From an uncultured bacterium (GTDB taxonomy: Bacteria; Zhuqueibacterota; QNDG01; DTFT01): DNA of 64,000 nt. Positions 21,166-60,826 of this stretch are shown one piece after another; position 1 is the first letter of the stretch, and the number at the start of each line of letters is the position of its first letter. The notes beneath the pieces were generated by a model. It made no database searches and was not told where the DNA came from. It saw only the letters and a program-made list of their open reading frames with translations. The stretch spans positions 32,001 through 96,000 of the forward strand of contig CAVTNR010000022.1 of NCBI GenBank assembly GCA_963736115.1, in the 5' to 3' direction. The translations under genes and the position numbers were made by a program.

Positions 21166-21259
21166 AGTTCATAGTTCATGGTTCATAGTTAAGAGAAATT
21201 TTGGAAAAGCGTTTATTTTTCTTTTTCAACAATGAACTATGAACCATGAACCATGAACT
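21166..21259. repeat. Inverted heptamer-array hairpin, RGTTCAT type, copy 4
   Basis: AGTTCATAGTTCATGGTTCATAGTT...AACAATGAACTATGAACCATGAACCATGAACT. Confidence 0.9.
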
Positions 21260-23819: not shown

Positions 23820-23887
23820 CGTTCCGAGTTCCGGGTTTCGGGTTCCGGGTTGAAGAACTCGGAACACGGAACTCGAAACCTGGAACG
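23820..23887. repeat. Inverted heptamer-array hairpin, RGTTCCG type
   Basis: CGTTCCGAGTTCCGGGTTTCGGGTTCCGGGTT-gaag-AACTCGGAACACGGAACTCGAAACCTGGAACG. Confidence 0.9.
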
Positions 23888-26114: not shown

Positions 26115-26197
26115 AGTTCATAGTTCATGGTTCCTAGTTCATAGTTGAAAAGGAAAATCTGTCTCAACAATGAACAATGAACTATGAACCATGAACT
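26115..26197. repeat. Inverted heptamer-array hairpin, RGTTCAT type, copy 5
   Basis: AGTTCATAGTTCATGGTTCCTAGTTCATAGTTGA...TCAACAATGAACAATGAACTATGAACCATGAACT. Confidence 0.9.
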
Positions 26198-26242: not shown

Positions 26243-29200
26243 ATGAAATTCATCGCGGACTTCCACATCCATTCGCATTTCTCGCTCGCCACGAGCGGCC
26301 TGCTCAAGCCGGAGCATCTCGACCGGTGGGGCCGCATCAAGGGCATCCGGGTCATCGGAACCGGCGACTTCACCCACCCGGGCTGGGTGGCGGAATTGAA
26401 GGAAAAGCTGGATCCCGCGGAACCGGGTTTGTACAGACTCAAGCCGGCGCTCCGTCTGCCCGCATTTGGAGGCCCGACGGATGCGGACGACGGCGTCCGC
26501 TTCATGCTCACCGCAGAGATCAGCTGTATCTACAAGCGGTCGGGCCGCGTGCGCAAGGTGCACAATGTTGTCTTTGCGCCGGATTTCGAGAGCGCGGAGC
26601 GCATCCAAAGCCGGCTCAGGTCCATGGACTTCAATATCACCTCGGACGGACGGCCCATTCTCGGTTTCGATTCACGGGACCTGCTTGAACTCTGCCTGAA
26701 CGCCTCTCCGGACATCTTCTTCGTCCCGGCCCACATCTGGACGCCGTGGTTTTCCGCGCTCGGCGACAAGTCCGGATTCGATTCGATCCGCGAATGTTAC
26801 GCGGACCTGTCGGATCACATTCATGCCGTGGAAACCGGGCTCTCGTCCGATCCAGCGATGAACCGGCTGTGCAGTCAACTCGATCCGTACGCCCTCATCT
26901 CTAATTCAGACGCCCATTCGCCCGAGAAACTTGGACGCGAGGCGAACCGGTTCGATGCGGAACTCTCGTACCCCGCCATCATGGAAGCGCTGAAGCATCC
27001 GGACTCGGGCCGGTTTCTCGGAACAGTGGAATTCTTTCCCCAGGAAGGCAAATACCACCACGACGGACACCGCAAATGCGGCATTTCCTGGACGCCGGAT
27101 GAGACGGATCGGCATGCCGGGATCTGTCCCGTGTGCGGGAAACAAGTGACCGTCGGCGTTCTCAATCGTGTGCATCAGCTGGCGGACCGCAGCGGCCAGG
27201 AGGAGAAAATCGGACGGCCGACGTTCCGGTCCATCATTCCGCTCTGCGAAGTGCTGTCCGAGATCCGAGGCACAGGTCCGCACAGCAAGGCGGTGCAGGC
27301 TGATTACGCGGCCGTGGTCCGGAAACTCGGAAGCGAGCTGGACATTCTGCTCGAAGCGGAAGCAGAGGACATCCGGAATGCCGGGGGCGCATTGCTCGTC
27401 GAGGCGGTCAAGCGGATGCGGGATGGACGCGTGTCCGTTGAGGCGGGCTATGACGGGGAATACGGCCGTATTCGCGTATTCGGTCCGGAAGACAGACAGT
27501 CGCTCAGTCAGGAGAGTCTGTTCATCGGTGATTCCGAGCCAGTCGGACAACCGGTCCGGCGGGGGCGCATGAAAAAAAGCGAGGCCGCGGTCGGTGAAAA
27601 AGGATCGAACGGGTCCGGAAGAAAGGAGACGGGGAAGGACGCCGCAGGCGCCGGATTCATCCTTTCGGCACGGCCGAATACCCGTGCCCTTTCAGCGGAG
27701 GAGGGATCCGGCGGGACCGCAGGAGAGGGATCCGGGACGACCGGCCGAGTTCCGCTCAACGCGGAGCAGGAAGCGGCCGCGATTCACGACAGCGGGCCCG
27801 CGCTGGTTCTGGCCGGTCCCGGAACAGGCAAAACAGCCGTGCTGACCGGCCGGATTCTCCGCCTGATACAAGGTCGCGGCGTTCCGCCGGAACGCATTCT
27901 CGCCATCACCTTCACCAACAAGGCTGCTGAAGAGATACGCAGCCGTGTGTCCGCGGCCACCGGGGGGCCGGTAGAAGGGAAGCGGATGCCGTCCGTCCTG
28001 ACTTTCCATTCCTTCGGCCATGCTTTGCTCCGGGAGCGGCCGGACTGTTTCGGCCGGAACCGTGATTTCCGCATCGCGGATGAAGACGACACGCTCGATA
28101 TCCTCAGAACCTTATATCCGGAATCAAAAGACGTTCGTCGTTTCGCGAAAATGCTGAAACAGTCGGTGGGAAAAGCCGGACCGGAGACGGGAGTGACGGA
28201 CGCGGATGCTTCGGACGGGGAACAGCAGGCGCTGAGGGACCGTTACGAAGAAGCGCTCCGGTCCGAAAACCTGTTTGATTTCAGCGATCTGCTGACCCGG
28301 CCGTTGCGGCTGTTCCGGGAGGATGCGGAATGGGCCCGTTCCGTTGCCGGCCGGTACGATCACATCCTGGTGGACGAGTTCCAGGACGCGGACGAAGCGC
28401 AGTACGAGTGGATGAGGCTTCTGGCTGGGCGGGATTCCGGGGCGGGGTCGCCTCATCTCTGGGCGGTGGGAGACCCGGACCAGTCCATATACGGTTTCCG
28501 CGGCGCCAGCCCGGTTTTCATGACCCGGTTCACCGAGGATTTCCCGGGCGTCACGGTGTACCGTCTGACGCGCAGTTACCGGTGTCCGGATACGGTGCTG
28601 CGGGCATCGGGGATGGTTTTACTGAAAGCCGGTTCCGGGTTCCGAGTTCCGGGTTCCGTGTTGGAAGAGAGCGGTTCCGCGTTCCGCGTTCCGGGTTCCG
28701 GGTCGAAAAATGAAAATGATTCGGAAAATGATTCGGGGGGTGTGTCATGCCCGTTAAAACGGACCAAGCAATCCTATTTCTTGAATAGGGAAGGCCCGCA
28801 TTCCTTAAGCGGGCATCCAGGGGCGTGGGTAGAGAGGTCGAATCTCCGCGGAACGGACGAGAAGGTCAAGGTCCGCATTGCGGGAAACGTATCCGAGGCG
28901 TCCGAGGCGGAGTTCATCAGCCGCACCATTGAGGCGATGACGGGCGGCGTTCGGTTCTTTTCCATGGACAGCGGCATCACAACCGGAGCGGAGGAGGAAT
29001 CGCTTGGTTTTTCCGACTTCGCCGTGCTGTGCCGGATCAGCCGTCAGTTTCCGGCATTGGAAAAAGCATTTCGCGATCACGGCATTCCGTACCGCCGCTC
29101 GGACGCGGAGCCGTTCTACAGGCGGGAGCCCGCGAAAACAATCGTTAAGGCGCTTAAAAAATGTTCCGTGTTTCGGGTTCCGGGTTCCGGGTTAAAAGAA

Positions 29201-29962
29201 ACGGGTTCCGAGTTCCGAGTTCAGGGTTCCGGGTTGAAAAACGAAAATGATTCAGGGGGGGATGTCATTCCCGTTGAAACGGACCAAGCAATTCTATTTA
29301 TTGATCGTGGAAGGCCCGCGTTCTTGAAGCGGGAATCCAGGGAGGGGGGAGAGAGTTCAGAGGAAGAGAAGGCTTCCGAGTTCCGGGTCCCGAGTTCGGA
29401 GTTGAACGAAAAGGAATGGTCCGAGCTTGCGGCCGTCACGGGCAGGGTGCCTGTCCGCGACCTGATCCACAGGCTGATCTCCGTCCTCCCTCCGGTTTCG
29501 GATCCCGCGGACAGGCTCGATCTGGAACTGCTGGCGGAGCGGTCCGTCCCGTTCGGAACGGACTTGCCCGCTTTTCTGGCCGCGCTGGCCCTGGGATCAG
29601 GACCCGACTGGGTCCGTACCGGAGGCGATTCCGTATCGCTCTTCACCTTGCACGCGGCCAAGGGGCTGGAATTCCCGTGCGTCTTCATCGCGGGCGTGGA
29701 GGACGGCCTTCTGCCCTACACCCTGTCCGGTCAATCCTCCTGCGACCCGGAAGAGGAACGCCGTCTGCTTTACGTGGGCATGACGCGCGCCAAGAAGCAT
29801 CTGATCCTGTCCCACGCCGACCGGCGGGAGCTGTTCGGCCGCATGCGCAATCCCGCGAGAAGCCCGTTTCTCGATGACATCGAACAGACGCTTCTCAGCA
29901 CTGGAAAAGCGCAGGGAAAGAGGGGCCGAAAGCCCGGCCGGGACCAGTTGAATCTGTTTTAG
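26243..29962 (+). CDS. EndoQ-like PHP nuclease fused to a UvrD/PcrA SF1 helicase
   Basis: PHP part: DFHIHS, GTGDFTHP, PAHIWTPW, NSDAHS, HRKC..CPVC, GYDGEYG. Helicase part: AGPGTGKT, TFTNKAA, VDEFQD, GDPDQSIYGFRGA, TLHAAKGLEF, EERRLLYVGMTRAK. Confidence 0.92.
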   Translation: MKFIADFHIHSHFSLATSGLLKPEHLDRWGRIKGIRVIGTGDFTHPGWVAELKEKLDPAEPGLYRLKPALRLPAFGGPTDADDGVRFMLTAEISCIYKRSGRVRKVHNVVFAPDFESAERIQSRLRSMDFNITSDGRPILGFDSRDLLELCLNASPDIFFVPAHIWTPWFSALGDKSGFDSIRECYADLSDHIHAVETGLSSDPAMNRLCSQLDPYALISNSDAHSPEKLGREANRFDAELSYPAIMEALKHPDSGRFLGTVEFFPQEGKYHHDGHRKCGISWTPDETDRHAGICPVCGKQVTVGVLNRVHQLADRSGQEEKIGRPTFRSIIPLCEVLSEIRGTGPHSKAVQADYAAVVRKLGSELDILLEAEAEDIRNAGGALLVEAVKRMRDGRVSVEAGYDGEYGRIRVFGPEDRQSLSQESLFIGDSEPVGQPVRRGRMKKSEAAVGEKGSNGSGRKETGKDAAGAGFILSARPNTRALSAEEGSGGTAGEGSGTTGRVPLNAEQEAAAIHDSGPALVLAGPGTGKTAVLTGRILRLIQGRGVPPERILAITFTNKAAEEIRSRVSAATGGPVEGKRMPSVLTFHSFGHALLRERPDCFGRNRDFRIADEDDTLDILRTLYPESKDVRRFAKMLKQSVGKAGPETGVTDADASDGEQQALRDRYEEALRSENLFDFSDLLTRPLRLFREDAEWARSVAGRYDHILVDEFQDADEAQYEWMRLLAGRDSGAGSPHLWAVGDPDQSIYGFRGASPVFMTRFTEDFPGVTVYRLTRSYRCPDTVLRASGMVLLKAGSGFRVPGSVLEESGSAFRVPGSGSKNENDSENDSGGVSCPLKRTKQSYFLNREGPHSLSGHPGAWVERSNLRGTDEKVKVRIAGNVSEASEAEFISRTIEAMTGGVRFFSMDSGITTGAEEESLGFSDFAVLCRISRQFPALEKAFRDHGIPYRRSDAEPFYRREPAKTIVKALKKCSVFRVPGSGLKETGSEFRVQGSGLKNENDSGGDVIPVETDQAILFIDRGRPAFLKRESREGGESSEEEKASEFRVPSSELNEKEWSELAAVTGRVPVRDLIHRLISVLPPVSDPADRLDLELLAERSVPFGTDLPAFLAALALGSGPDWVRTGGDSVSLFTLHAAKGLEFPCVFIAGVEDGLLPYTLSGQSSCDPEEERRLLYVGMTRAKKHLILSHADRRELFGRMRNPARSPFLDDIEQTLLSTGKAQGKRGRKPGRDQLNLF
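28631..28837 (+). repeat. In-frame repeat-derived insert 1 in the UvrD domain
   Basis: Two RGTTCCG arrays, then GAAAATGATTC, then TGTCATGCCCG...CGGGCATCCAG. Confidence 0.85.
29162..29403 (+). repeat. In-frame repeat-derived insert 2 in the UvrD domain
   Basis: Homologous to insert 1 (TGTCATTCCCG...CGGGAATCCAG) with a third heptamer array at about 29373-29403. Confidence 0.85.
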
Positions 29963-29977
29963 CGGATCGTCCGTTCC

Positions 29978-30472
29978 ATGGAAATCAATCCATCCGAAAA
30001 GAAACTTTTTCGTGAAATCGTCCGTTTCGAATGCCGGGGCTGCGGCGCCTGCTGCAAGGTCCACGGGAAGTATGCTTACGTCTACCTGACCACGGCGGAC
30101 CGTAGGCGTCTCGCCCGCCATCTGGGCCTGAGCGTGCGCGAACTGATCAGAACCGTCTGTGTCCGGATCGACGGCCACTATTATATAGGCGAATCGAAGC
30201 GGAAATGCCGTTTTCTGGAAGGGAACCGGTGTTCGATCTATCCCGGCCGGCCGCATCAGTGCCGGTCATGGCCTTTCTGGCCGGACAACCTGGATGGGGA
30301 AGCGTGGATGAAAAATGTCCGGTCCGTGTGCCCGGGCGCAGGTCCGGTATTGGCTTCACGCTCCGCGGCTGCGGGACCGGAACAGAATGTCCCGGGAACG
30401 ACCGGATCCATCCGAACAAACGCATGCCGGAATCGCGACTTTTCCCTTGGAAAGAGCCGCGGCGATGCTTAA
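29978..30472 (+). CDS. YkgJ-family CxxCxxCC Fe-S/Zn cluster protein
   Basis: FECRGCGACC...CRFL...CSIYPGRPHQCRSWPFW...CPG. Confidence 0.9.
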   Translation: MEINPSEKKLFREIVRFECRGCGACCKVHGKYAYVYLTTADRRRLARHLGLSVRELIRTVCVRIDGHYYIGESKRKCRFLEGNRCSIYPGRPHQCRSWPFWPDNLDGEAWMKNVRSVCPGAGPVLASRSAAAGPEQNVPGTTGSIRTNACRNRDFSLGKSRGDA

Positions 30473-58977: not shown

Positions 58978-59077
58978 AGTTCATAGTTCATGGTTCATAG
59001 TTCATTGTTAAAAGAGAAAGCTTGAGGCGCCAAAATCCCGTTTTTAACCATGAACCATGAACTATGAACCATGAACT
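58978..59077. repeat. Inverted heptamer-array hairpin, RGTTCAT type, copy 6
   Basis: AGTTCATAGTTCATGGTTCATAGTTCATTGTT...AACCATGAACCATGAACTATGAACCATGAACT. Confidence 0.92.
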
Positions 59078-60718: not shown

Positions 60719-60826
60719 AGTTCATAGTTCATGGTTCATAGTTCATAGTTAAAAGAAGTATCGGAAAGTTTACTTGTTTTCTTTTTCAACTATGAACAAT
60801 GAACTATGAACCATGAACCTTGAACT
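60719..60826. repeat. Inverted heptamer-array hairpin, RGTTCAT type, copy 8
   Basis: AGTTCATAGTTCATGGTTCATAGTTCATAGTT...AACTATGAACAATGAACTATGAACCATGAACCTTGAACT. Confidence 0.92.

What the first reader, a model, noticed from the sequence alone, without database searches (positions are those of the whole stretch)
28631..29403. Repeat element inserted twice in-frame inside the helicase, one half read in two different frames
Seen: two homologous 200-240 bp blocks, each with heptamer arrays, GAAAATGATTC and a TGTCATKCCCG...CGGGMATCCAG REP-like unit. The 5' halves are 531 bp apart and in the same frame (FRVPGSG peptides). The 3' halves are 520 bp apart, so near-identical DNA gives SCPLKRTKQSYFLNREG in one copy and VIPVETDQAILFIDRGR in the other. 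Conservation is therefore at DNA level, yet the 1239-aa frame stays open. Inserts fall after motif IV and in the 2B region. Only the stop-free RGTTCCG heptamer is found in coding DNA; the stop-rich RGTTCAT type stays intergenic. Established analogue: Rickettsia palindromic elements in proteins. Inference: a mobile repeat creating new protein loops, or sequence removed at RNA/DNA level.
Basis: partly seen in the sequence, partly recalled or inferred. Interest (0 to 1): 0.8.

Follow-up and report, generated by a model that had tools for sequence, protein, structure and literature searches.

The report
Non-coding repeats translated inside a helicase
Two copies of a composite repeat that normally lies between genes sit in frame in two floppy surface loops of a DNA-repair helicase, a new example of a known way that repeats lengthen proteins.

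Summary
The ORF at 26243..29962 encodes an intact Endonuclease Q / UvrD-type helicase fusion. It holds two homologous blocks (about 28631-28834 and 29159-29403). Each block is a mosaic of three repeat families that are spread through the genome:

- tandem GTTCCGR heptamer "arms" in 42-nt (14-codon) units;
- a hairpin, GTCATNCCCG...CGGGNATCCAG, which matches the published Neisseria NTS / Ssn-related motif;
- a nested 45-nt piece of a MITE-like palindrome inside that hairpin.

Orthologues from four related MAGs carry differently built inserts at the same two sites. All 10 of 10 inserts are multiples of three in length and free of stops. The other families examined lack them. Across these orthologues the hairpin is read in all three codon phases. 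AlphaFold2 models both inserts as disordered loops.

I conclude that the inserts are translated and tolerated, in the manner of Rickettsia palindromic elements. Removal at the RNA, DNA or protein level is unlikely.

Earlier follow-ups of this scan reported in-frame heptamer arrays in other genomes. The new points here are the NTS-type hairpin inside coding DNA, its nesting, and the switching of heptamer spelling at orthologous sites. Expression has not been tested.

The parts
26243..29962 (+). Host gene: 1239-aa fusion of Endonuclease Q and a UvrD/PcrA-type helicase, open throughout.
   Evidence: ORF list and translation. Pfam UvrD-helicase at aa 505-768 and UvrD_C at aa 1108-1192. Residues 5-415 match Endonuclease Q structures 5zb8 and 7k30 at E = 2e-51. 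TIGR00375 and PcrA/UvrD models match. Full-length orthologues occur in many phyla.
28631..28834 (+). Insert block 1 (aa 797-864), in the loop after helicase motif IV.
   Evidence: Missing from orthologues of the other families examined. pLDDT is below 50 for model residues 318-385, which are aa 797-864.
28632..28701 (+). Two tandem heptamer arms, (GTTCCGR)x4 followed by GTTGGAAGAGAGC. Each unit is 42 nt and encodes GSGFRVPGSxLEEx.
   Evidence: sequence.
28712..28743 (+). Spacer with GAAAATGATTC duplicated (a 12-nt in-frame duplication), then a G-run.
   Evidence: family D5; sequence.
28744..28820 (+). NTS/SRM-type hairpin, long form: GTCATGCCCG ... CATTCCTTAAGCGGGCATCCAG. The G of GTCAT is the third base of its codon.
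   Evidence: Its two flanks together are 32/32 identical to the uninterrupted hairpin of G002 (sequences).
28754..28798 (+). Nested 45-nt module (15 codons): one arm of a MITE-like palindrome (GGACCAAGCAAT...GAAGGCCCG), bounded by a CCCG direct repeat.
   Evidence: Comparison of G000 with G002 at site 1. The same arm occurs in dispersed palindromes.
29159..29403 (+). Insert block 2, at the start of the variable 2B-type region. The low-confidence stretch is aa 980-1052 (29180-29398).
   Evidence: pLDDT is below 50 for model residues 501-573.
29163..29239 (+). Two tandem heptamer arms, GTTCCGT/GTTTCGG/GTTCCGG and so on, each followed by GTTAAAAGAAAC or GTTGAAAAAC.
29243..29263 (+). Single GAAAATGATTC spacer, then a G-run one base longer than in copy 1. 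This is where the frame shift between the two copies arises.
   Evidence: family D5; sequence.
29264..29340 (+). NTS/SRM-type hairpin, long form: GTCATTCCCG ... CGTTCTTGAAGCGGGAATCCAG. The G of GTCAT is the first base of its codon. The stem differs from copy 1 by a compensatory pair (ATGCCCG/CGGGCAT against ATTCCCG/CGGGAAT).
29274..29318 (+). The same nested 45-nt module, at the same position in the hairpin as in copy 1.
   Evidence: Comparison of G000 with G001b and G002 at site 2; alignment.
29373..29399 (+). Third, degenerate heptamer array closing block 2 (ASEFRVPSSEL).

Best explanation
The two blocks are copies of a composite repeat that is otherwise non-coding. They lie in two variable surface loops of an intact Endonuclease Q / UvrD helicase and are translated as disordered loop extensions.

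Each block has three parts:
- Tandem "left arms" of the genome's heptamer-array hairpin element: four GTTCCGR units plus about 14 nt, giving 42 nt or 14 codons.
- An A-rich spacer followed by a G-run.
- A hairpin of the NTS / Ssn-related-motif type. In this genome the hairpin carries a nested 45-nt arm of a third, MITE-like repeat.

The frame survives for two reasons. On this strand the GTTCCGR units have no stop in any phase, and the arms change length in steps of 21 or 42 nt. Selection on the helicase then removes any variant that is out of frame or contains a stop.

The hairpin is read in different phases in different copies because the G-runs on either side of it differ by single bases. 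It is therefore conserved as DNA, not as peptide.

Shown here: the anatomy, restriction to one lineage, frame-keeping across variants, and the disorder prediction. Inferred: that the inserts are translated, and that the variation arises by slippage, recombination and gene conversion among dispersed copies rather than by a dedicated transposase.
For: 1. Intact host gene. All helicase motif residues are invariant in a 21-sequence alignment. The block between the two inserts is 86-90% identical in nucleotides to same-genus orthologues, but only 72-76% at third codon positions, which indicates purifying selection.

2. Lineage-specific inserts. Orthologues from other families of the order and phylum have 0-17 residues at site 1 and unrelated sequence at site 2. 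The heptamer pattern occurs in 4 of 4 other genomes of family f1 and in 0 of 36 genomes of other families. The reversed-pattern control gives 0.

3. Frame-keeping. Five helicase versions from four MAGs have site-1 inserts of 258, 297, 111, 321 and 87 nt and site-2 inserts of 303, 258, 252, 237 and 177 nt. All 10 are multiples of three with no stop in frame, although most have stops in the other forward frames.

4. Conservation at DNA level. Seven hairpins in these genes are read in all three codon phases (4, 2 and 1).

5. The building blocks are intergenic repeats.
- 282 period-7 arrays were found.
- By a flank-coding test, 1 of 63 GTTCCGR arrays and 2 of 181 AGTTCAT arrays are intragenic, against 552 of 1000 random sites.
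- Neighbouring arrays form convergent pairs 60 times and divergent pairs once.
- 9 of the 33 strict hairpins outside the helicase have an array within 120 nt.

6. The same thing happens in other genes. A 7-aa array insert lies in an OPT transporter loop. A whole inverted pair lies in the linker of a CoA-activase-like protein, in frame in 5 of 5 family members at 189, 150, 318, 333 and 135 nt.

7. Disorder. AlphaFold2 on aa 480-1239 gives pLDDT of about 30 and no secondary structure at exactly aa 797-864 and 980-1052, between confident core elements.
Against: - There are no RNA or protein data. No RNA run holding this DNA was listed.
- The genome is an 87%-complete MAG, and no run holding this exact strain could be laid.
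- The hairpin stems and flanks are more conserved than neutral sites. At site 1, 32 of 32 positions are identical between G000 and G002, against about 75% identity at third codon positions. Mere tolerance does not explain this. It requires either recent gene conversion or a function at the DNA or RNA level.
- The two G000 hairpins both carry the nested module and are each other's closest relatives. This needs an exchange between the two sites that I did not demonstrate.
- The low pLDDT may partly reflect that only one of the 20 other sequences in the alignment (a same-genus orthologue) carries any sequence at the insert sites.
Confidence: 0.75

Rival explanations
1. The inserts have been domesticated or act at the DNA level. 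On this view they are kept because they do something. The hairpins could serve as target sites for the genome's small GIY-YIG (Ssn-like) single-strand nucleases, or as recombination hot spots. Alternatively the heptamer arrays and the 6-7-nt G-runs (up to 9 nt in G002) could make this repair helicase a length-variable or on/off contingency locus.
For: - Hairpin stems are conserved above the neutral level, and the two copies differ by a compensatory stem change.
- Short-form hairpins in the orthologues fit the published SRM search pattern (pattern taken from PMC11893778, Methods passage).
- 2 of 7 GIY-YIG hits are small single-domain genes flanked on both sides by such hairpins.
- Both arms of the in-frame pair in the CoA-activase-like gene change spelling together between species.
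- G-runs and 7-nt units are classical slippage substrates (established knowledge).
Against: - All 10 of 10 helicase inserts and 5 of 5 CoA-activase inserts are in the "on" frame. No out-of-frame allele was seen.
- G003 and G001a lack the hairpin at both helicase sites, so it is dispensable there.
- The published SRM pattern is only weakly enriched in this genome: 53 matches against 25-37 in five Markov-1 simulations.
- Homology of the GIY-YIG genes to characterised SsnA was not tested.
Confidence: 0.12
2. The inserts are removed before the protein functions, as an intron-like RNA element, by DNA excision, or as an intein.
For: - The inserts are discrete and repeat-bounded, and they contain hairpins.
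Against: - Excised sequence would not need to be a multiple of three and free of stops, yet 10 of 10 variants are.
- No Rfam family matched in 28000-30000 even at E up to 10, apart from four chance-level hits outside the inserts.
- The inserts are about 70 aa of low-complexity sequence. By recalled knowledge inteins are longer and carry conserved nucleophile blocks. I ran no intein-motif search.
- Insert boundaries differ between species.
Confidence: 0.04
3. Artefact or decay: the blocks are repeat-induced assembly chimeras, or the gene is a decaying pseudogene.
For: - This is a MAG assembly, and dispersed short repeats are a known cause of misjoins.
- No run holding the same strain was available to lay reads on it.
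Against: - Four independently assembled MAGs, and contigs of relatives in public runs, carry inserts at the same two sites.
- The 1239-aa frame and all helicase motifs are intact.
- Third-position divergence exceeds overall divergence.
Confidence: 0.03

Closest known systems
Rickettsia palindromic elements (RPEs) in protein-coding genes (Ogata et al. 2000, 2002). I saw these only as summarised in passages of the MITE review PMC10969869.
   Same: - A dispersed family of small repeats inserted in frame in unrelated housekeeping genes.
- The host proteins are presumed to stay functional, with the insert as an extra surface segment.
   Different: - According to the review, each RPE encodes a conserved peptide. 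Here the same DNA is read in three phases.
- The element here is a mosaic of three unrelated repeat types, and one of them is nested inside another.
- There is no sequence relationship, and the lineage is different.
- Coding copies are rare here: three genes found, whereas nearly half of the RPEs are in ORFs.
Heptameric simple-sequence repeats with a four-unit preference and convergent pairs: GGGAATC in Xanthomonas and GGGGAYT in Nostoc (Rehm et al. 2015, PMC4692102; abstract and passages). [quoted passage not shown]
   Same: - 7-nt units, with four units as the mode: 121 of 245 arrays.
- Convergent inverted pairs: 60 against 1 divergent.
- A strong bias towards non-coding DNA.
- Occasional intragenic copies.
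   Different: - The units are GTTCATR, GTTCCGR and GTTCAAR. They have no G3 tracts, so the G-quadruplex explanation for four units cannot apply.
- In the genes the arms are amplified as 42-nt, 14-codon super-units.
- The spelling of the unit switches at orthologous sites between species.
Neisseria Transformation Sequence (NTS) / dRS3 and Ssn-related motifs (SRM), the single-stranded-DNA targets of SsnA GIY-YIG nucleases (PMC11893778; passages including the Methods motif definitions).
   Same: - The hairpin module GTCATTCCCGC-loop-GCGGGAATCCAG has the same oriented core as the published NTS consensus.
- 4 of 5 uninterrupted helicase hairpins fit the published SRM pattern.
- Small single-domain GIY-YIG genes (96 and 121 aa) are flanked by such hairpins.
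   Different: - The loop is mostly 11 nt, longer than in the Neisseria consensus.
- There are only about 35 strict copies, against hundreds in Neisseria.
- The copies here lie inside a coding sequence and are translated.
- The G000 helicase copies are interrupted by a 45-nt module.
- Nuclease specificity and homology to SsnA were not tested.
Neisseria intergenic mosaic elements, REP/BIME-type mosaics, and intragenic ERIC or MITE insertions. ERIC and MITE insertions as described in passages of PMC10969869. For NIMEs I saw only search listings plus recall.
   Same: - Small repeats of several families are stacked into mosaics.
- The mosaics differ between close relatives.
   Different: Here the mosaic sits inside an ORF and every version stays in frame.

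Membership tests
RPE-type in-frame palindromic repeat | Member of a dispersed repeat family in the same genome. | tested here: met
   Arrays: 282 period-7 arrays. Hairpins: 35 strict copies. MITE-like arm motif: 76 matches.
RPE-type in-frame palindromic repeat | Inserted in frame in a conserved gene, with an empty site in relatives. | tested here: met
   Other families lack the inserts, and 10 of 10 variants are in frame.
RPE-type in-frame palindromic repeat | The element encodes one conserved peptide, always in the same frame. | tested here: not met
   The hairpin is read in three codon phases: 4, 2 and 1 of 7 copies.
RPE-type in-frame palindromic repeat | Sequence similarity to a described RPE family. 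| not tested
Heptameric SSR / heptamer-array hairpin elements | Tandem 7-nt units with a preference for four units. | tested here: met
   The mode is four exact GTTC units, in 121 of 245 arrays.
Heptameric SSR / heptamer-array hairpin elements | Convergent inverted pairs and a bias towards non-coding DNA. | tested here: met
   Orientation of neighbouring arrays: +- 60, -+ 1, ++ 12, -- 11. Intragenic: 3 of 252 arrays by the flank test, against 552 of 1000 random sites. The four helicase arrays escaped that filter.
Heptameric SSR / heptamer-array hairpin elements | G-quadruplex-forming G3 tracts (Xanthomonas/Nostoc type). | tested here: not met
   The units GTTCATR, GTTCCGR and GTTCAAR have no GGG on either strand.
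NTS / Ssn-related motif hairpin | Fits the published degenerate SRM search pattern. | tested here: inconclusive
   4 of 5 uninterrupted hairpins in helicase orthologues fit. The two G000 copies do not, because of the 45-nt insert. Genome-wide there are 53 matches against 25-37 in five simulations, so the pattern is loose.
NTS / Ssn-related motif hairpin | Association with a small single-domain GIY-YIG gene flanked by the motif. | tested here: met
   2 of 7 GIY-YIG hits (C8:41063-41287 and C26:17760-17978) have hairpins on both sides within about 150 nt. The genome-wide density is 0.028 per kb. Both are single-domain, 96 and 121 aa.
NTS / Ssn-related motif hairpin | The GIY-YIG protein belongs to cd10448 or is homologous to N. 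meningitidis SsnA, and cuts the motif as single-stranded DNA. | not testable with these tools
   No CDD library or SsnA reference was available. NCBIfam and PDB sequence searches found nothing.
Self-splicing intron or intein | A recognisable ribozyme or intein signature. | tested here: not met
   No Rfam match within either insert at E up to 10. No Pfam intein or Hint domain was reported for the protein at E up to 0.001.
REP with RAYT (Y1 transposase) | A Y1_Tnp gene flanked by the repeat. | tested here: not met
   Three Y1_Tnp hits. None has hairpins or arrays of these families flanking it within 1.5 kb on either side.

The most novel reading that the evidence does not exclude
The heptamer-array and hairpin mosaics may be actively rewritten DNA cassettes, not passive passengers. 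At orthologous sites in three genes the whole array changes spelling between sister species (GTTCCGR, GTTCATR, GTTCAAR). In the CoA-activase-like gene both arms of the in-frame pair change together. NTS-type hairpins are conserved above the neutral level while being read in three frames. This would fit a templated, hairpin-directed copying or repair process, possibly involving the genome's Ssn-like single-strand nucleases. Such a process would install and homogenise these elements, and in doing so would make a repair helicase a length-variable locus.
Probability: 0.12. Interest if true: 0.75.

Novelty: new variant of a known kind. Interest (0 to 1): 0.45.

Why it matters
This locus gives an unusually clean natural experiment on how non-coding repeats become protein sequence. 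The same two loops of one conserved helicase carry five differently assembled mosaics in sister genomes. All are in frame, and one module is read in all three phases. Selection therefore acts on frame and on the DNA, not on the peptide.

It also places an NTS / Ssn-type hairpin inside coding DNA. These hairpins were only recently shown to be targets of single-strand nucleases in Neisseria. In addition, the four-unit preference of heptamer repeats holds here without any G-quadruplex potential, which argues against the G4 explanation offered for Xanthomonas.

For annotation the practical lesson is this: FRVPGSG-, SKFKVQS- and GTRNPEP-type low-complexity segments in this lineage are repeat-derived, not domain features.

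Tried and rejected
- Rfam scan of 28000-30000 at E up to 10. It returned four chance-level hits, none inside the inserts.
- RAYT link. The three Y1_Tnp genes are not flanked by these repeats.
- Sequencing runs. No RNA holder was listed, and only five DNA runs hold small shares (0.05-0.11) of the sampled words.
- Laying four runs gave only contigs of relatives, 85-99% alike. One 502-nt contig in X4 bridges 28719 to 28794 with 17 other letters, so it comes from a relative with an uninterrupted hairpin. One X3 contig joins 28667 to 28844. Neither comes from this strain, so neither tests the assembly.
- My first codon-usage model was contaminated by shadow ORFs, and I retrained it. The resulting flank test misses the helicase arrays and hairpins, because their flanks are themselves repeats. 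Its intragenic counts are therefore lower bounds.
- Stop-removing substitution. Copy 2 reads GGAAGG where the intergenic consensus, in the same phase, would give TGA. Copy 1 shares that G without needing it. I therefore do not count this as independent evidence of selection.
- NCBIfam and PDB sequence searches with the small GIY-YIG proteins found nothing.
- Search of earlier findings by look-alike sequence found nothing for this stretch.
- I did not run the large protein-database searches, fold search or complex prediction, because none of them would have changed the verdict.

Full report
**Observation**

The window is G000:C22:32001-96000. The genome is a 3.34-Mb, 60%-GC, 87%-complete MAG.

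ORF 26243..29962 (+) is open for 1239 aa. Residues 5-415 match Endonuclease Q structures (5zb8, 7k30; E = 2e-51) and TIGR00375. Residues 505-1192 are a UvrD/PcrA-type helicase. The host gene is therefore an EndoQ-UvrD fusion, and full-length orthologues occur in many phyla.

The repeat finder confirms two homologous blocks:
- The 5' halves, 28632-28722 and 29163-29253, are 85% identical and 531 nt apart.
- The 3' halves, 28735-28829 and 29255-29349, are 82% identical and 520 nt apart.

The 3' half is therefore read in two frames. It gives VSCPLKRTKQSYFLNREG in one copy and VIPVETDQAILFIDRGR in the other. The 11-nt offset comes from a 12-nt duplication of the GAAAATGATTC spacer and a one-base difference in the G-run before the hairpin. 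In both blocks only the frame in use is free of stops; the other two forward frames have 4-5 each.

**Anatomy**

Each block is a mosaic of three repeat families found across the genome.

1. Heptamer arrays.
   - The genome has 282 period-7 arrays: 181 of the AGTTCAT type, 63 of the GTTCCGR type and 8 of the GTTCAAA type.
   - The native form is a convergent inverted pair: (GTTCATR)x4-GTTGAAA, a variable spacer of about 30 nt, then TTTCAAC-(YATGAAC)x4. A runs precede it and T runs follow it.
   - Among neighbouring arrays, 60 are convergent (+-) and 1 is divergent (-+).
   - Four exact units is the mode, in 121 of 245 arrays.
   - In the helicase only "left arms" occur. They are repeated as units of 28 + 14 = 42 nt, which encode GSGFRVPGSGLEEx.

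2. A hairpin, GTCATNCCCG-loop-CGGGNATCCAG.
   - There are 35 strict copies. Loop lengths are 6, 11, about 30 or about 56 nt.
   - 11 of the 35 have an array within 120 nt, and 9 of those lie outside the helicase. In the non-helicase cases I inspected, the array lies upstream in the same orientation. "Array, G-run, hairpin" is thus a recurrent intergenic composite.

3. A nested 45-nt piece.
   - In both G000 helicase hairpins it sits between TCCCG and CCCGC and is bounded by a CCCG repeat.
   - It is one arm of a MITE-like palindrome, GGACCAAGCWAT...ATTGAAGGCCCGC. The arm motif has 76 matches in the genome.

**Relatives**

Orthologues from other families of the order and phylum have 0-17 residues at site 1 and unrelated sequence at site 2.

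Four same-genus MAGs give five helicase versions, because G001 has two. All have inserts at both sites, built differently in each:

| Site | Insert lengths (nt) |
|---|---|
| 1 | 258, 297, 111, 321, 87 |
| 2 | 303, 258, 252, 237, 177 |

All 10 of 10 are multiples of three and free of stops in frame.

The content varies as follows:
- G003 has arrays only.
- G002 and G001b have uninterrupted hairpins.
- G001a has the opposite arm of the MITE-like palindrome at site 2.
- The seven hairpins are read in all three codon phases: 4, 2 and 1.

The G000 site-1 hairpin, with the nested piece left out, is 32/32 identical to its G002 counterpart. Third codon positions of the helicase block between the sites are only 75% identical.

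The heptamer pattern is found in 4 of 4 other genomes of the family and in 0 of 36 genomes of other families. The reversed-pattern control gives 0.

**How general it is in this genome**

Arrays are strongly excluded from coding DNA. By a flank-coding test, 1 of 63 GTTCCGR arrays and 2 of 181 AGTTCAT arrays are intragenic, against 552 of 1000 random sites. The filter misses the helicase copies.

Two further genes nevertheless carry in-frame arrays:
- An OPT transporter (Pfam) has a 7-aa insert (SGFRVPG or SKFKVQS) in the three same-genus genomes whose contig covers the site. It is missing in 5 of 6 orthologues from other families.
- A BadF/BcrA-type CoA-activase-like protein has a whole inverted pair in its interdomain linker in 5 of 5 family members. 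The lengths are 189, 150, 318, 333 and 135 nt, all in frame. Other families lack it.

In the second case G000 uses the stop-rich GTTCATR spelling, with TAG avoided. G001, G003 and G004 use GTTCCGR, and G002 uses GTTCAAR. Both arms change together. It also shows that the spellings are variants of one element family.

**Structure**

AlphaFold2 was run on aa 480-1239 with a 21-sequence alignment. Mean pLDDT is 68.9.
- The RecA-like core is confident.
- Two long stretches have pLDDT of about 30 and no secondary structure: model residues 318-385 and 501-573, which are aa 797-864 and 980-1052. These are exactly the inserts.
- Walker A, motif II, motif III and the later motifs are invariant in the alignment.

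**Interpretation**

The inserts are best read as translated, tolerated loop extensions made from repeats that are otherwise non-coding. The frame is preserved by the 21/42-nt quantisation of the arms, by the lack of stops in GTTCCGR on this strand, and by selection on the helicase.

Removal at the RNA, DNA or protein level is unlikely. An excised segment would not need to stay in frame and free of stops in every variant, and no intron signature was found.

Misassembly is unlikely because independent MAGs, and contigs of relatives in public runs, show inserts at the same sites. However, no run holding this strain was available.

Three things remain unexplained:
- the above-neutral conservation of the hairpin;
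- the presence of the same nested piece in both G000 copies, which implies exchange between the two sites;
- the concerted switching of heptamer spelling.

**Comparison with what is known**

- In-frame small palindromic repeats are known from Rickettsia. I saw this only through passages of the review PMC10969869. There each element encodes one conserved peptide, which is not the case here.
- Heptamer repeats with a four-unit preference, convergent pairs and a bias to non-coding DNA are described for Xanthomonas and Nostoc (PMC4692102; abstract and passages). [quoted passage not shown]
- The hairpin has the oriented core of the Neisseria Transformation Sequence / Ssn-related motif (PMC11893778; passages). 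4 of 5 uninterrupted helicase hairpins fit the published search pattern, although that pattern is loose: 53 genome matches against 25-37 in five simulations. 2 of 7 GIY-YIG hits are small single-domain genes flanked by such hairpins. Homology to SsnA itself was not tested.

Earlier follow-ups of this scan reported heptamer-array hairpins, including in-frame copies in housekeeping and repair genes, in other uncultured lineages. One of them pointed me to PMC4692102, which I then read. I did not recheck their own claims.

**Verdict**

This is a real and well-supported example of repeat-derived protein loops. It is a new variant of a known kind. What stands out is the three-layer mosaic, the NTS-type hairpin translated in three phases, and the evidence from variation between species. 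Expression and any function of the inserts remain untested.

Noticed in passing
window 26116-26196; also 21167-21258, 23821-23886, 58979-59076, 60720-60825: Complete heptamer-array hairpin elements: (GTTCATR)x4, a spacer, then (YATGAAC)x4, flanked by A and T runs. One lies only 47 nt upstream of the helicase start codon. Their shape suggests bidirectional terminator-like hairpins, but I did not test this.
   Followed up: partly
G000:C17:1806-1971 (locus L137/L148): An inverted pair of stop-rich GTTCATR arrays lies in frame in the interdomain linker of a BadF/BcrA-type CoA-activase-like protein. Sister genomes have GTTCCGR or GTTCAAR arms at the same site. Both arms covary, and G002 has in addition an NTS-type hairpin in frame there.
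   Followed up: yes
G000:C17:14042-14073 (locus L136): A 21-nt (three-heptamer) in-frame insert in a loop of an OPT oligopeptide transporter. It reads SGFRVPG in G000 and G002 and SKFKVQS in G003, and is missing in 5 of 6 orthologues from other families.
   Followed up: yes
G000:C26:17621-18073 (L162) and G000:C8:40994-41733 (L160): Small single-domain GIY-YIG genes (121 and 96 aa) are bracketed by NTS-like hairpins. Downstream of the C8 gene, the translated ORFs show a short peptide motif (GMTSRLKTE type) repeated about 12 times in tandem (L160 about 1797-2382). This fits a tandem cluster of related hairpin-like repeats, but I did not examine the DNA.
   Followed up: partly
G000, dispersed; for example C8:70530-70730, C14:125860-126060, C2:83900-84100: A MITE-like palindromic family, GGACCAAGCWAT...ATTGAAGG-loop-CCTTCAAT...ATWGCTTGRTCC, flanked by small CCGG/CCCG hairpins. 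The arm motif has 76 matches. One arm of it is the piece nested in the helicase hairpins.
   Followed up: partly
G001:C170 against G001:C246 plus C364 (loci L051, L052, L033): The sister MAG G001 holds two different versions of the helicase. One resembles G000 more closely. This points to strain mixing or contamination in that bin rather than true paralogy.
   Followed up: no
G000:C5:73276-74619 (minus strand): An ORF whose middle part looks like a pseudouridine synthase (my recollection, not scanned) has a C-terminal tail of about 90 aa. The tail is made of heptamer arrays in both orientations (SKFKVQ, SEFRVPSS, GTRNTKPGTRNS), as if the arrays had extended the reading frame.
   Followed up: no
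window 26243-27487: The N-terminal 415 residues are an Endonuclease Q domain fused to the helicase. The same EndoQ module also occurs as a stand-alone protein of about 430 aa in many candidate-phyla genomes.
   Followed up: partly
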